Below are positions 1 to 56,955 of a stretch of 64,000 nucleotides of DNA, in pieces. How positions within the stretch are numbered: position 1 is the stretch's first letter; every line of letters starts with the position of its first letter. Source of the DNA: Candidatus Woesearchaeota archaeon (GTDB taxonomy: Archaea > Nanobdellota > Nanobdellia > Woesearchaeales > JABIAG01); assembly GCA_018653365.1 (NCBI GenBank), contig JABIAG010000001.1, forward strand, positions 416,001-480,000, read 5' to 3'. The translations under genes and the position numbers were made by a program. Under the pieces are notes generated by a model. It saw only the letters and a list, made by a program, of their open reading frames with translations. It made no database searches and had not been told where the DNA came from.

Positions 1-1311
1 AAGCGTTGTTTTTAATCTTAGACTTTTTAGTTCTTTTTTAATGTTTGGGATTACATCAATATTTGTGTATCCGTTTAGTTCAAGGACTTCTTTTAAATGT
101 TTTAATTTGTTTCGAGCAGGATGAATGTGTTTAGCAAATGTTCTTAAACTTTCGCCTCCAATAACTACTACTGTGTAAAACCATCCTTTTTTGTGTATTG
201 TTCGGCCATTAACTTGTGTGAATTCATCACAATACCTGGATCTGATTGATGAAATTATGTTTTCTCTGAGTAATAGTTTTGAAATATCTTCAGCTAAAAC
301 CTTGCTGGTTGTACAAAACCCGGTAGAATAAACTCTGTTGTTTTTAACTTCTAAATAACCATCCCCATCTAAATACCCACTTAAAAATTCAAAAACACAT
401 TCCTTTTTTAATCTAAATATAAACGAGGGTAGTTTAGATATTCGCGATTTTCGACCTTTGATAAATCCCAAGTTTTCTAAGAAATTAACCAAAAAAGAAG
501 AGGTTAAACCAAGAGTTGTGGTTCCGTTTTGATTTATTTTCTTCCAGGGCGATCTTTCAAATATTTTTTTAATTAGTTTAAAATAGTACTCAAGAACTTC
601 TTTATTCTTGTTTGAGGCATATAAATCCCTATGGTTTATGTATCCCTCTGCAAGTGAAAAACCCAATAACCGCATAAATTCTTCATTAATTCTTATTTTA
701 GGAAATGAACTTTTATCAGACGAAATTCGCGTTATTTGTTTAAATATGTCTGTTTGTTTTATTTTAATTTGTTCTGTTAACCTGTTAAGTATTTTAAGTT
801 TAAACTTGTATTCGCCGTTCAGTGCAGATCTTAATTGAGAATAAGAAAGATCTTCTTTGAACTGTTTTTCCCATAAATCTTTTATTGATCCAAACTTTTT
901 TATAATACTATTTTTAAGTTGTATTCGAAACAAACTATTTATTTCAGCAAAGCCTGTTTCAGGATAGTTCTTATATGTGTATTTAATTAATTCTTCATTT
1001 TTAAGTTCTTTAAATTTATTTTTTCTGATAAGTGCAATGAAGTCACCTTTTTTAAATTTGATTGCTTCTTTCCAACATAATTCTGAATTTTGAATTGTGA
1101 GAAACTTGTGGTTTTTTGTGCAAGCAATTTTTCTTCCTAAATTGCTTTCAATTTTTAAAAGTTGTTGTTGGTTTCTAGTTTTGAATTTGTTTAATATTGT
1201 CTCATTACTTAACTTTAAATTATTTAAACTTTGTACTTTTTGTTTTTTTAGATTTTTAATCTCAATCCATTCACCGTTAGAATTTAATATTTTTGTGTTA
1301 CCTTCAAGACA
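1..1311 (-). mobile_element. Intein with LAGLIDADG (DOD) homing endonuclease in Lhr; C-terminal splice junction lies outside the window
   Basis: The frame switches from extein LKAVV to CLEGNTKIL (block A, Cys codon 1311-1309). Block B IACTKNHKFLT follows, then endonuclease motifs LLGFSLAEGYI and FLSGYLDGDGYL. Confidence 0.9.
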
Positions 1312-41321: not shown

Positions 41322-42125
41322 ATGGTGGATGGCAGACATATTCAACCCAATACTGTTAGTGATGGGTGGGCCAAAAGATTTGCACGATCTTCCTCTGGAT
41401 CTTATAAAATAAAACCGCATGTTGATTATGAAAAAATTGCATTAAGTGTGGTTAAAAAAGTGGGTGATTTAACTTCTGGAATGTTTTTAGTGAATGGATT
41501 ATTGGGTAGAACGGGAATAGAGCTGATTGCACTAACTGATTTTGAACCTAACACTTTGAAATCAATATATGGTTTGTTGAAAGCACATCCTCCCACGGTA
41601 CAAATGGCATATGCACAAAAACAAAAACTTGATAATGTTTGGTTAAATTTCAAACAGGATGAACTGCCAGTAACCTTAACAATGATTAACCAGAGAGCAA
41701 TAGATGCATTAAAAGGATTGAATCTTGATAATACAGGATATGTGAGATGTATGGAAACACATGTTGGCGGACAGACAGTAAAAGAAAGAGAGTTATTGCG
41801 AAATTTACGTGGAGGAAAGAGAGAGTGTGTATTTCCCTGCAAACAAGTTCAGGGAGAACTCCATTGCGGACATGGAGTTGCACATTTTGAGGATGGAGAG
41901 GTATATGTTGGACAACCATTGTTGCCTTTCTTATTAGGACCTGAAACTTTGGTGGAAGGAATATTGACTGATGCAGGAGATGAAATAAGAAACAATTTAA
42001 GAACGGCATTAAGAAAAACCTATGGTGAAAGTTCTGATAGAGTATCTTTAGTAAACGCACTTCCACGAATGACTCAATCACGATTAAACGCTTCTACAAG
42101 AAAATATCTGACTGAGTTTTTCTAA
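41322..42125 (+). CDS. Hypothetical protein
   Basis: 267-aa ORF with upstream TATA; no recognised family. Confidence 0.6.
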   Translation: MVDGRHIQPNTVSDGWAKRFARSSSGSYKIKPHVDYEKIALSVVKKVGDLTSGMFLVNGLLGRTGIELIALTDFEPNTLKSIYGLLKAHPPTVQMAYAQKQKLDNVWLNFKQDELPVTLTMINQRAIDALKGLNLDNTGYVRCMETHVGGQTVKERELLRNLRGGKRECVFPCKQVQGELHCGHGVAHFEDGEVYVGQPLLPFLLGPETLVEGILTDAGDEIRNNLRTALRKTYGESSDRVSLVNALPRMTQSRLNASTRKYLTEFF

Positions 42126-42174: not shown

Positions 42175-42214
42175 AAAATTTATTAACGTTCATAACCTTT
42201 AATTGCTATGAACG
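42175..42214 (+). promoter_or_regulatory. TATA box plus 8-bp inverted repeat covering the endonuclease start codon
   Basis: TTTATTAA at 42179-42186; CGTTCATA (42187-42194) is the exact reverse complement of TATGAACG (42207-42214). Confidence 0.55.
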
Positions 42215-42834
42215 CTAAAAATTTTTATTCACCTTATTTGGCAGAAATTCTTGGATTGTTGTGTGCTGAAGGCCATCACGCAATAGCTTATTCAAGTTAT
42301 TGGAGTCTTGATCGCGGTAAACCTCGTTTTCGTAAAAACAAAAGGTCAGAAAGAATCGAGATTTATAGTAAAGATATAAAACTTTTAAACCATTTTGCGT
42401 TTCTTGTAAAAAAACAGTTTGGTTATTTTCCAAACATAACTAAAGATAATAAAATATGTATTGCTAGAAAACAGGTTATGCGTGAGATAATTTCGCAAAC
42501 AGAGCTTGGTGTATTAAATTGGACAGTTCCCGGTTTTGTTTTCACGAGTAATAAAAAAACAAAATATGCTTTTATTAGAGGTTATTTAGATGGGGATGGC
42601 ACGGTAATAAATAATGTTCGTTTTTTCTCTTGTAATAAACCAGGTTTATTAGCAGTTCAAATATTGTTATTTTCTGTGGGTTTTAAAACAACTTTACAGG
42701 GTCCCATCATTAAACCTAAAAGGAAACCTGCTTATGTTCTTCAATTAACCAGAAAACAAAAAGAAACCTTTTTAAAGATAATAAAACCGATTAGTAAATG
42801 TGCGGGTGCTGTGCATCCAGCTATGCGGGGGTAA
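42208..42834 (+). mobile_element. Free-standing two-motif LAGLIDADG homing endonuclease gene overlapping the 5' end of tRNA-Leu
   Basis: Motifs LAEILGLLCAEGH and FIRGYLDGDGTV; no intein splicing blocks; stop codon at 42832-42834 lies inside the tRNA. Confidence 0.88.
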
Positions 42835-42953
42835 TTAAAATCTCTAGAGCAAAGTCTGGTTAAATGCGCAGGACTTAAGAATGCGACACTCAATACTGAG
42901 TTGAGATATCCTGTCGCTTAGTGCGTTCGTGAGTTCAAATCTCATCCCCCGCA
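42825..42953 (+). tRNA. tRNA-Leu(TAA) with two introns: 42833-42847 (15 nt, position 8/9) and 42880-42907 (28 nt, canonical 37/38)
   Basis: Acceptor GCGGGGG/CCCCCGC+A; D arm GCA..TGC; anticodon stem CAGGA/TCCTG with TAA at 42876-42878; long variable arm; T arm GTGAG-TTCAAAT-CTCAT. Both insertions fit bulge-helix-bulge geometry. Confidence 0.9.
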
Positions 42954-42986: not shown

Positions 42987-43712
42987 TTATCTTCTGTTAA
43001 CTCTTCGCTTACATCGATCATACCGTAACCCAAAATATGTATTAAATTCGTTAGCAGGCAATAAACTAACTTGTTGCTGTTTATATCTAGCATTTGGATA
43101 AAACCTACTGACTAATTCCTTTTTGACCTCAACCCTACTTCTTCCCAGTGTTAATGTTGGACAAATTTGAAGTGCTTTACATGCATCTAAAAATACTCTT
43201 GCTTTTCTGAAAGAATCACAATCAGCATAACTCCAGGGCGTATCAAGACGAAATTTATTTCTTACGTCCCTTTCAGGCATAACCTCTCCTGCTTTGTAAA
43301 CTCTAAATCTAAGCATTGCAGGGAGAAATTCTGTTTCAACAACATTCATCTCTCTGGGTTTTAGGCCTGTTTTTAATTTTTGAAGGGCAGTTTTGAAGAC
43401 ATCATCTGTGTGATCTGTGAGTTCGGTGCGATATTCATAAGAGAATCCTTCAAATTCAATTGAAATTGTATGATACTGTTGCTTGACTGTTGAAATACGG
43501 ACAAGACCTGTTAATGGTTCAAGACCGATCTTTGATCTAACTATGTTGTCTAAGAAGTGGGGGAATTCCTGCTTGCGACGTTCGGCCAATTTTTTACTGG
43601 CTAAAATTTCAGCTTGGTATTTAGTAAAATATTCGCGATCAGCAGGACTCATAGCAGCAAGCCTGTCTTCTTCATAATCTTGCCATGCACTTTCAAGTTC
43701 CTCGGGAGTCAT
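42987..43712 (-). CDS. Hypothetical protein
   Basis: 241-aa ORF; no recognised motif. Confidence 0.6.
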   Translation of the reverse strand: MTPEELESAWQDYEEDRLAAMSPADREYFTKYQAEILASKKLAERRKQEFPHFLDNIVRSKIGLEPLTGLVRISTVKQQYHTISIEFEGFSYEYRTELTDHTDDVFKTALQKLKTGLKPREMNVVETEFLPAMLRFRVYKAGEVMPERDVRNKFRLDTPWSYADCDSFRKARVFLDACKALQICPTLTLGRSRVEVKKELVSRFYPNARYKQQQVSLLPANEFNTYFGLRYDRCKRRVNRR

Positions 43713-56871: not shown

Positions 56872-56955
56872 GGGCTTATGGTCTAGCGGTATGACGTCGC
56901 CTCGACAATGCATTCGAAGTGGCGGAAGTCCCCGGTTCAAATCCGGGTAGGCCCA
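56872..56955 (+). tRNA. tRNA-Val(GAC) with a 12-nt canonical intron (56908-56919)
   Basis: Acceptor GGGCTTA/TAGGCCC+A; stem TCGCC/GGCGG; loop TC-GAC-A|intron|T; central helix TCGA/TCGA; T arm CCCGG-TTCAAAT-CCGGG; AAAAGTTTTTAAA promoter. Confidence 0.9.

What the first reader, a model, noticed from the sequence alone, without database searches (positions are those of the whole stretch)
42822..42852. tRNA intron at the unusual position 8/9 with a complete BHB motif
Seen: 15 extra nt (AATTAAAATCTCTAG, 42833-42847) separate U8 from A9. They form an hBHBh' motif: central helix G3-G6 (GGGG) with intron CTCT, bulges G7-U8|A and A-G|A9, outer helix T(-1)G1C2 with G10C11A12, inner stem ATT/AAT. Known: non-canonical archaeal introns are mostly in the D, anticodon, variable and T arms. 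I do not recall 8/9 as a common site, but this needs checking. Inference: the motif uses the acceptor strand and 5' leader, so splicing must precede cloverleaf folding and RNase P cleavage. Standard tRNA finders may miss this gene or call it a pseudogene.
Basis: partly seen in the sequence, partly recalled or inferred. Interest (0 to 1): 0.72.

Follow-up and report, generated by a model that had tools for sequence, protein, structure and literature searches.

The report
Leader-guided 8/9 intron in tRNA-Leu
The only leucine-tRNA(UAA) gene of this tiny archaeon is split between bases 8 and 9 by a 15-base intron that proteins must cut out; it is a shrunken member of an intron family found in about 1 in 13 related genomes, its splice signal uses the transcript's leader, and it often sits beside a selfish DNA-cutting enzyme gene, which gives a testable clue to how odd tRNA introns arise.

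Summary
A 15-nt insert (42833-42847) separates U8 from A9 of a tRNA-Leu(UAA) gene (42825-42953) that also has a canonical 28-nt 37/38 intron.

- **Real gene:** removing the 15 nt is necessary and sufficient for ARAGORN to call the tRNA. It is the only tRNA-Leu(UAA) found, and UUA is 42% of Leu codons.
- **Intron family:** 47 distinct Woesearchaeota tRNA-Leu(UAA) genes carry an insert at this site, in 30 of 401 genomes sampled from the order. The usual length is 29-34 nt, with a strict hBHBh' motif backed by compensatory changes. The 15-nt form, shared with one congener, is a deletion derivative. Its inner stem is nearly gone, so "complete BHB" is overstated; it is hBH/BHL-like.
- **Leader pairing:** the outer helix continues into the 5' leader, where YYRG-N pairs with D-loop G-N16-CUGG. 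This covaries and is missing from intronless genes.
- **Homing endonuclease:** an intact LAGLIDADG gene (42208-42834) ends inside the tRNA. Its relatives lie 5' of tRNA-Leu(UAA) in 26 loci, and 25 of those carry the intron. No intronless gene from the genome sample has one.
- **Inference, not shown:** the intron shields the endonuclease's target (collaborative-homing-like).

The scan had already noted the same kind of arrangement at tRNA-Phe on another contig of this genome.

The parts
42208..42834 (+). Free-standing LAGLIDADG homing endonuclease gene (208 aa, intact). Its stop TAA is U8 of the tRNA plus the first two intron bases.
   Evidence: ORF. Pfam LAGLIDADG_3 at 3e-12. Both motifs with E21 and D130 invariant in alignment A1. 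40 homologues at 38-62% identity.
42770..42778 (+). TATA-like box TTTTTAAAG, probably the tRNA promoter, encoded by the endonuclease's F-L-K codons (inferred).
   Evidence: TTTTTAA(A/G) lies 40-57 nt before tRNA +1 in all 17 overlapping arrangements whose F-L motif was located. The 6 spacer arrangements with a located motif spell it with non-TATA codons, and all 7 spacer loci carry a separate TATA-like box at -57 to -71.
42817..42824 (+). 5' leader segment CCAGCUAU, which pairs with D-arm and D-loop bases 42851-42859 and extends the outer helix of the splice motif.
   Evidence: MFE of 42815-42860. Leader/D-loop duplex -10.8 kcal/mol against -4.8 for shuffled leaders across 46 genes. Covariation with nucleotide 16.
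42825..42832 (+). tRNA-Leu(UAA) exon 1, nucleotides 1-8. G3-G6 (42827-42830) form the exon strand of the central 4-bp helix.
42833..42847 (+). 15-nt intron at 8/9. CUCU (42842-42845) is the intron strand of the central helix. A-G (42846-42847) plus A9 form the 3' bulge.
   Evidence: The homologous 15-nt intron is in congener G001.
42848..42879 (+). Exon 2, nucleotides 9-37, including D-arm G10 C11 A12 (outer helix) and D-loop GUCUGG (leader partner).
42880..42907 (+). Canonical 37/38 intron, 28 nt. The central helix C32-A35 with UGAG and the bulges A36 G37|A and A U|A38 reproduce the same cleavage rule (cut after the second bulge base).
   Evidence: ARAGORN intron of 28 nt.
42908..42953 (+). 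Exon 3, nucleotides 38-73 (long variable arm, T-arm, 3' acceptor strand, discriminator A). No CCA is encoded.

Best explanation
**What it is.** This is the functional, single-copy tRNA-Leu(UAA) gene of a Woesearchaeota (DPANN) genome. It carries two protein-spliced introns: the canonical 37/38 intron and a 15-nt intron between U8 and A9.

**How it is most likely spliced.**
- Transcription starts roughly 20-25 nt upstream, from a TATA box inside the neighbouring gene (inferred).
- As the 5' part emerges, the leader (CCAGCUAU) plus G1-C2 pair with D-arm and D-loop bases 10-19.
- G3-G6 pair with the intron's CUCU.
- This yields a long hairpin with a 3-nt bulge (A-G|A9) at the 3' splice site. The 5' site (G7 U8|A) lies four base pairs away, at a weakly closed bulge or loop, so the motif is relaxed (hBH/BHL).
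- The 177-aa EndA cuts both sites and RtcB joins the exons. Only then can G1-G7 pair with the 3' strand and RNase P remove the leader (order inferred).

**Where it came from.** The 15-nt intron is a deletion derivative of a roughly 31-nt strict hBHBh' intron family that occupies this site in many Woesearchaeota.

**Why it may be there (inferred, about 45%).** The adjacent free-standing LAGLIDADG endonuclease recognises the intronless tRNA-Leu(UAA) gene around the 8/9 junction. The intron splits that site and protects the host copy. Endonuclease gene, leader, exon 1 and intron are copied together into cut intronless alleles. The endonuclease then decays, and the intron with its leader partner remains.
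For: **Gene is real and needed**
- Removing the 15 nt restores a standard 86-nt tRNA-Leu(taa).
- No second tRNA-Leu(UAA) was found in a 95%-complete genome.
- TTA is 42.5% of Leu codons.
- EndA, RtcB and RNase P RNA are present.

**Splice motif**
- Among 46 distinct intron-bearing genes, the central helix is 4/4 in 45, and the outer pairs 2:10, 1:11 and -1:12 all pair in 44.
- On alignment A2, 84.6% of cells are paired against 38-49% when partners are slid. The covariation score is 0.40 against 0.25 shuffled (0 of 500 shuffles reach it). All 10 inner-helix pairs show changes on both sides.

**Leader**
- Duplex energy is -10.8 against -4.8 kcal/mol for shuffled leaders; for intronless genes it is -4.7 against -4.1.
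- When N16 is C, the leader base is G in 22 of 22. When N16 is U, it is A in 16, G in 5 and C in 1.
- The predicted MFE of the whole pre-tRNA keeps the motif (-48.8), equal to the acceptor-stem conformer (-48.7). The motif is already complete once 62 nt are made.

**Derivative status**
- G000 and G001 share the 15-nt form. Other short forms of 19, 21 and 25 nt exist.

**Endonuclease link**
- 25 of 26 tRNA-Leu(UAA) genes next to a family member carry the intron.
- In the order sample, 7 of 29 intron-bearing genes and 0 of 17 intronless genes have one upstream.
- Decayed copies occur: a nonsense codon in G001 and L054, a frameshift in G302, truncated copies in L030 and L047, fragments in G097.
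- The nearest relative, G002 (S6e 88% identical), lacks both endonuclease and intron. The more distant G001 (67%) has both.
- Genomic neighbourhoods differ outside the genus, so the endonuclease follows the tRNA gene and not the locus.
- All six free-standing LAGLIDADG ORFs of this genome abut tRNA genes.
Against: - There are no RNA data, so splicing, its order relative to RNase P, and the transcription start are all inferred.
- In this copy the inner helix is almost gone. The MFE pairs G7 and U8, which must open for a cut four base pairs from the 3' bulge.
- The EndA looks like a plain alpha subunit. I did not test whether it has the loop tied to broad specificity.
- G000's own leader has C opposite U16, a mismatch.
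- Against the homing part: no cleavage-site data exist. One locus (L041) has an apparently intact endonuclease beside a tRNA-Leu lacking both introns. Most intron-bearing genes have no endonuclease. Upstream synteny is not shared between families, so classical double-strand-break repair could only work among close kin. Relatedness inflates all the counts.
Confidence: 0.8

Rival explanations
1. The endonuclease-intron link has no mechanism behind it. The endonuclease gene entered one ancestral intron-bearing locus, or simply favours the 5' flank of tRNA genes as a safe, transcribed landing place, and the association reflects descent.
For: Most intron-bearing genes lack the endonuclease (22 of 29). 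More distant family members sit 5' of tRNA-Ser and tRNA-Cys genes, some without any intron (L056, L057). L041 has an intact endonuclease beside an intronless gene. The counts are not phylogenetically independent.
Against: 25 of 26 against a background of about 7.5% intron-bearing genomes in the order. The endonuclease is found in at least 6 GTDB families, in different neighbourhoods, yet always at the same tRNA. Within one genus the pair is present or absent together.
Confidence: 0.35
2. The endonuclease recognises intron-bearing alleles, with the intron or leader forming part of its site. It therefore spreads only among genes that already have the intron, and the intron is older and independent.
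For: Endonuclease-bearing loci are nested within the intron-bearing set. The intron's 3' part (CCUYAGA) and the leader YYRG motif are conserved DNA that could serve as a site.
Against: The host copy would then need another form of protection. The interior of the intron varies freely. This is not how characterised intron-associated homing endonucleases work (PMC6083498, Background section).
Confidence: 0.12
3. The gene is a disrupted pseudogene, or the 15 nt stay in the mature RNA.
For: Standard finders reject it. The inner helix of the motif is degenerate.
Against: It is the only tRNA-Leu(UAA) for the commonest Leu codon. All other tRNA features are intact. The 15-nt form is kept in a congener whose S6e is only 67% identical, with its three substitutions confined to loop and bulge positions and CUCU unchanged. 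47 homologous cases exist.
Confidence: 0.04
4. Assembly artefact or chimera at the tRNA 5' end.
For: None found.
Against: The same architecture appears in dozens of independent assemblies from different projects.
Confidence: 0.01

Closest known systems
Non-canonical BHB tRNA introns of Archaea (Thermoproteales including position 3/4; ARMAN-2 13-nt hBH/BHL intron at 59/60)
   Same: A short protein-spliced intron defined by a bulge-helix-bulge at the exon-intron borders. It occurs together with a canonical intron, takes a relaxed form in a DPANN genome, and is missed by standard finders (PMC4090602, PMC3239211, PMC8450103).
   Different: The position is 8/9, sliding to 9/10 in some relatives, which is not among the positions listed in the reviews I could read. 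The outer helix is built from the 5' leader pairing with the D-arm and D-loop, with covariation. The EndA here looks like a single 177-aa alpha subunit.
Collaborative homing: free-standing F-CphI and the psbA group I intron of cyanophage S-PM2 (Zeng et al. 2009, as summarised in PMC6083498)
   Same: A free-standing homing endonuclease gene lies next to an intron-bearing gene. The proposal is that the intron interrupts the enzyme's target and that the two move together.
   Different: Here the intron is protein-spliced and not self-splicing, the host gene is a tRNA, and the enzyme is LAGLIDADG and not Endo VII-like. Cleavage specificity and protection are untested, so this is a 'works like' comparison and not a claim of membership.
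Archaeal rRNA BHB introns that carry LAGLIDADG genes inside the intron (PMC4496867)
   Same: A BHB intron associated with a LAGLIDADG endonuclease in an essential RNA gene.
   Different: The ORF lies outside and upstream of the intron, overlaps the tRNA's promoter, leader and exon 1, and ends in the intron's first bases. The intron itself is only 15-38 nt.
Split and permuted tRNAs whose BHB is formed by flanking leader or trailer sequence (PMC3978253, PMC3218864)
   Same: Sequence outside the mature tRNA supplies one strand of the splice motif, so EndA must act before the ends are trimmed.
   Different: This gene is contiguous and collinear. The leader acts as an internal guide for an ordinary cis intron.

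Membership tests
Archaeal protein-spliced (BHB) tRNA intron | Removing the insert restores a canonical tRNA | tested here: met
   ARAGORN calls tRNA-Leu(taa) only after the 15 nt are removed.
Archaeal protein-spliced (BHB) tRNA intron | Strict hBHBh': two 3-nt bulges separated by a 4-bp helix and flanked by two helices, with splice sites after the second bulge base | tested here: inconclusive
   In this copy the 4-bp helix, the 3' bulge and the outer helix are present. The inner helix is at most 2 A-U pairs, and the MFE puts the 5' site at a loop edge. This is the relaxed hBH/BHL form. In the 29-34-nt relatives the strict motif is met, with covariation.
Archaeal protein-spliced (BHB) tRNA intron | Splicing endonuclease and RNA ligase encoded by the genome | tested here: met
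   PF01974 at 107.8 bits in a 177-aa ORF. RtcB at 565 bits.
Archaeal protein-spliced (BHB) tRNA intron | EndA of a type or loop known to accept relaxed motifs at non-canonical positions | not tested
   Only one catalytic-domain hit, so an alpha4-like type is inferred. PMC5829648 reports alpha4 EndAs with the L3 loop in DPANN lineages with disrupted tRNAs. I did not check for that loop here.
Archaeal protein-spliced (BHB) tRNA intron | Excision seen in RNA | not testable with these tools
   No transcript data available.
LAGLIDADG homing endonuclease (free-standing) | Two LAGLIDADG motifs with their acidic residues, about 200 aa, no intein splicing domain | tested here: met
   Pfam PF14528. E21 and D130 are invariant in A1. 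Both motifs found. The closest solved relative is the endonuclease part of PI-PkoII.
LAGLIDADG homing endonuclease (free-standing) | Optional gene: presence/absence polymorphism at the same site among close relatives, and decayed copies | tested here: met
   Absent from G002, present in G000 and G001. Nonsense, frameshifted, truncated and fragmentary copies.
LAGLIDADG homing endonuclease (free-standing) | Site-specific cleavage of the endonuclease-free allele | not testable with these tools
   Needs an enzyme assay.
Collaborative homing | The endonuclease cuts the intronless allele at the intron insertion site, and the intron prevents self-cleavage | not testable with these tools
   Only the association is shown. 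L041 is a counter-example that needs explaining.
Collaborative homing | The partner intron is a self-splicing group I intron | tested here: not met
   The intron is 15-38 nt with a BHB motif, too short for a ribozyme. It is therefore not filed as a member, only as a functional analogue.

The most novel reading that the evidence does not exclude
In DPANN archaea, free-standing LAGLIDADG homing endonucleases that target tRNA genes drive the gain and spread of non-canonical, protein-spliced tRNA introns. A cassette of endonuclease gene, guide-like leader, short 5' exon and intron is copied into cut intronless alleles, and the intron serves as the only tolerable form of target-site immunity in an invariant essential gene. 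After the endonuclease decays, the intron and its leader partner stay behind. This would give a concrete mechanism for the unexplained origin of non-canonical archaeal tRNA introns.
Probability: 0.4. Interest if true: 0.82.

Novelty: new variant of a known kind. Interest (0 to 1): 0.64.

Why it matters
How non-canonical archaeal tRNA introns arise is an open question. Reviews say the mechanism is unknown (PMC4090602, PMC5829648), and a 2026 census of Asgard tRNA genes found no general route of arrival (bioRxiv 10.64898/2026.10.13.758758).

This locus offers three things:

1. An intron site, the acceptor/D junction at 8/9, that the reviews I could read do not list.
2. Covariation evidence that a 5' leader supplies one strand of the splice motif. 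That fixes an order of processing, with EndA acting before RNase P and before cloverleaf folding, and it explains why gene finders fail.
3. A tight, directional association with a mobile endonuclease gene. This turns the origin question into bench experiments: cleavage of intronless against intron-bearing alleles, and leader mutants.

On the practical side, tRNA-Leu(UAA) will be reported missing from roughly one in thirteen genomes of this order unless finders model this arrangement.

Tried and rejected
- **9/10 register for this copy.** It gives the same mature sequence but only 3 of 4 central-helix pairs (TCTA against G4-G7), so 8/9 is preferred. Five relatives do use 9/10, a one-base slide along the G run.
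- **Inner stem ATT/AAT of 3 bp.** Rejected, because it leaves a 2-nt loop.
- **Second tRNA-Leu(UAA).** None found by D-arm and anticodon-loop patterns, ARAGORN or Rfam.
- **Shared locus as the reason for the endonuclease position.** Rejected: S6e is upstream only within this genus.
- **Gene-conversion tract between G000 and G002.** Differences sit at both ends of the tRNA, so there is no clear tract.
- **Function of the two flanking orphan ORFs.** No Pfam or PHROG match and no composition anomaly.
- **Published record of an 8/9 or 9/10 intron, or of homing endonucleases beside archaeal tRNA BHB introns.** Four library searches found none. The key catalogues, Sugahara 2008 and Marck & Grosjean 2003, are not held, so prior description cannot be excluded.
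- **The -1:12 pair as evidence on its own.** Weak, because U at -1 is also common before intronless genes.
- **Introns after position 8 in tRNA-Ser of Aenigmatarchaeota next to distant endonuclease relatives (L049, L051).** I could not fix a register, so I left this open.

Full report
**1. What is in the sequence**

On the + strand, 42825-42953 encodes a class II tRNA. Exon 1 is GCGGGGGU (nucleotides 1-8, 42825-42832). Fifteen extra bases follow (42833-42847). Exon 2 (42848-42879) runs from A9 to G37 with anticodon UAA. A 28-nt intron sits at the canonical 37/38 site (42880-42907). Exon 3 (42908-42953) holds the long variable arm, the T-arm and the 3' acceptor strand.

ARAGORN, with or without intron mode, and Rfam at gathering score do not report the gene. 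Rfam at E-value threshold aligns only model positions 9-63, starting exactly at 42848. Cutting out the 15 nt in silico is necessary and sufficient for ARAGORN to call tRNA-Leu(taa). With both introns removed it draws a normal 86-nt cloverleaf.

**2. Is the gene needed**

The window lies in a 1.09-Mb, 34% G+C, 95%-complete genome. Record titles of its relatives name them Woesearchaeota or Nanoarchaeia. No other tRNA-Leu(UAA)-like sequence exists in the assembly. TTA makes up 42.5% of leucine codons in long ORFs. The genome encodes a 177-aa splicing endonuclease with one catalytic domain, RtcB and RNase P RNA. A pseudogene is therefore very unlikely.

**3. The splice motif in this copy**

- G3-G6 pair with CUCU (42842-42845).
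- A-G|A9 forms a 3-nt bulge.
- C2:G10, G1:C11 and U-1:A12 form the outer helix.

The rule 'cut after the second bulge base, four base pairs apart' also reproduces the canonical 37/38 site in this same gene, where C32-A35 pair with UGAG and the bulges are A36 G37|A and A U|A38. That serves as an internal control.

The proposed inner stem of three pairs cannot form, because it leaves a 2-nt loop. At best two A-U pairs close a tetraloop, and that strict fold scores +1.0 kcal/mol. The MFE of 42822-42852 (-5.2 kcal/mol) extends the central helix by G7-U and U8-A and leaves a 7-nt loop. This copy is therefore a relaxed hBH/BHL-type substrate. An intron of that kind, 13 nt at 59/60, has been shown to be cut by the ARMAN-2 enzyme (PMC3239211).

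The MFE of 42815-42860 (-12.9 kcal/mol, z = -2.5) adds a further feature. Leader CCAGCU pairs with A14-G15 and C17-G19 of the D-loop, which lengthens the outer helix.

**4. Relatives**

- Congener G001 has a 15-nt insert at the same place. It differs at three loop or bulge positions and keeps CUCU unchanged.
- Congener G002 and 17 other genomes of the order have U8-N9-G10 with nothing between.
- A pattern scan of 401 genomes of the order found true inserts at this site in 30 genomes, which is a lower bound.
- With the loci found through the neighbouring gene, 47 distinct intron-bearing tRNA-Leu(UAA) 5' regions are in hand (L040 was read by eye).

The usual length is 29-34 nt, with a conserved AAGC...GCUU hairpin. 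Shorter forms of 25, 21, 19 and 15 nt look like deletions of that hairpin.

The central helix is 4/4 in 45 of the 46 scored. Exon A4 is always opposite U, and C at that intron position occurs only opposite G4. Five genes use the 9/10 register, a one-base slide made possible by the G3-G7 run.

On a MAFFT alignment of 45 of these regions:
- 84.6% of cells pair, against 38-49% for slid partners.
- The covariation score is 0.40 against 0.25 for shuffles (0 of 500 reach it).
- Every inner-helix pair shows compensatory changes, for example C-G 15, U-A 15, A-U 3, G-C 2.

The family is a bona fide hBHBh' intron, and the window's copy is its minimal derivative.

**5. The leader is part of the motif**

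In 44 of 46 intron-bearing genes a YYRG-N motif lies 6-16 nt before +1, complementary to D-loop G-N16-CUGG. Mean duplex energy is -10.8 kcal/mol against -4.8 for shuffled leaders. Eighteen intronless genes give -4.7 against -4.1.

The base after YYRG covaries with nucleotide 16. When N16 is C it is G in 22 of 22. When N16 is U it is A in 16, G in 5 and C in 1, the last being G000 itself. The motif is kept whether the leader is coding or non-coding, so the constraint is on the RNA.

For the whole precursor (42800-42952) the predicted MFE keeps the leader/BHB hairpin (-48.8 kcal/mol), level with a fold forced to form the acceptor stem (-48.7). The hairpin is already complete after 62 nt are transcribed.

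A TATA-like box lies 40-57 nt upstream of +1 (57-71 nt in variants with a spacer), so a leader that includes the motif must be transcribed (the start site is inferred). That order remains inferred.

**6. The neighbouring gene**

ORF 42208-42834 encodes an intact 208-aa two-motif LAGLIDADG protein. Its stop codon is U8 plus the first two intron bases.

It has about 40 homologues of around 200 aa. In GTDB representative genomes, family members lie directly 5' of tRNA-Leu(UAA) in 26 loci, and 25 of those carry the 8/9 or 9/10 intron. The exception, L041, has lost both introns.

In the order sample, which was not chosen by endonuclease:
- 7 of 29 intron-bearing genes have the gene upstream, several of them decayed.
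- 0 of 17 intronless genes have it.

G001's copy has TAG where the family has Trp. G002 is closer to G000 (S6e 88% identical, against 67% for G001) and lacks both the endonuclease and the intron, with the tRNA 43 nt from S6e. Outside the genus the neighbourhood differs, so the endonuclease follows the tRNA gene. All six free-standing LAGLIDADG ORFs of this genome abut tRNA genes, at 0-241 nt.

**7. Interpretation of the link**

The nested pattern is this: the endonuclease implies the intron, the intron often occurs alone, and neither occurs in most genomes. That is what a homing cycle predicts if the enzyme targets the intronless gene, the intron protects, and the enzyme gene later decays. This is the logic of collaborative homing (PMC6083498). 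It would also explain how an intron that needs a leader partner can be gained in one step, because leader, exon 1 and intron lie between the presumed break and the endonuclease gene.

It is not shown. There are no cleavage data, L041 is an exception, synteny does not support long-range homologous repair, and relatedness inflates the counts. I put it at about 45%. Mere co-descent or a landing-site preference gets about 35%, and targeting of intron-bearing alleles about 12%.

**8. Literature**

Reviews list 3/4, 20/21, 22/23, 25/26, 29/30, 30/31, 45/46, 53/54, 56/57 and 59/60 'etc.' [quoted passage not shown] I found no paper describing 8/9, or homing endonucleases beside archaeal tRNA BHB introns. 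The primary catalogues are not held, so this is absence of evidence.

**9. Caveats on data**

G316 and G212 (intron-bearing) and G004 (intronless) are unpublished genomes. G316 contributes one of the 46 sequences and was left out of A2. G212 is counted from the pattern match alone. G004 was only seen. No conclusion depends on them. Without them the figures are 28 of 401 genomes, 45 sequences, and 21 of 21 for C16:G.

**10. Verdict**

The finding is real and correctly interpreted, apart from the word 'complete'. It is a new variant of a known kind. It is more interesting than first described because of the leader pairing and the endonuclease link. The scan has already noted the same theme at tRNA-Phe in this genome.

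Noticed in passing
window 42880-42907 and 42911-42916; relatives L002-L018: The canonical 37/38 intron contains GCGACA, complementary to UGUCGC at the anticodon-stem/variable-arm border. The pairing covaries in relatives (GUGAUA/UGUCAC, GAGACA/UGUCUC, GGACA/UGUCC). A similar GGACAC element also occurs in the long leaders of the 'spacer' variants (L027, L029, L032, L038, L043). It could be a guide-like or folding-control element.
   Followed up: partly
window 42832-42834: The predicted EndA 5' cut (U8|A) falls inside the endonuclease gene's stop codon, and RNase P would cut 7 nt before it. Read-through mRNA that is processed as a tRNA precursor would therefore lose its stop codon. In 7 of 23 family members the stop sits at exactly this place.
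   Followed up: no
window 41322-42125 (+) and 42987-43712 (-): Two orphan ORFs (267 and 241 aa) flank the endonuclease-tRNA pair. They have no Pfam or PHROG match and no tblastn match in the homologous loci of G001 and G002.
   Followed up: partly
G000 C2:78123-79166, C2:81058-81882, C2:126606-127457, C1:751114-751800, C3:42512-43330: Every free-standing LAGLIDADG ORF of the genome abuts a tRNA gene, and several of those tRNAs have multiple introns. One ORF ends inside the D-loop of a tRNA that starts at C2:79152. Another lies about 50 nt 5' of a multi-intron tRNA-Asn.
   Followed up: partly
L041:2501-3160: An apparently intact family endonuclease runs 39 nt into a tRNA-Leu(UAA) gene that lacks both the 8/9 and the 37/38 intron. 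This looks like replacement by a copy of the mature tRNA.
   Followed up: partly
L025:2486-3139 (G001): The endonuclease has an in-frame TAG where the family has Trp. A database protein that otherwise matches it over the stretch compared by eye (P0001) shows Gln there, perhaps a translation under another code.
   Followed up: partly
window 56872-56955: tRNA-Arg(UCG) with an 11-nt insert, which ARAGORN places at a non-canonical anticodon-arm position.
   Followed up: no
whole genome G000: Rfam and ARAGORN find only about 27-30 tRNA genes in a 95%-complete genome, so many tRNA genes are probably hidden by non-canonical introns.
   Followed up: no
L049, L051 (Aenigmatarchaeota): Distant relatives of the endonuclease sit 5' of tRNA-Ser genes that also carry a roughly 17-nt insert right after position 8 (GCCGAGGU then the insert). 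I could not settle the register.
   Followed up: partly
window 124-402 (-): A LAGLIDADG_3 domain lies inside a 1579-aa open frame, probably an intein in a large protein.
   Followed up: no
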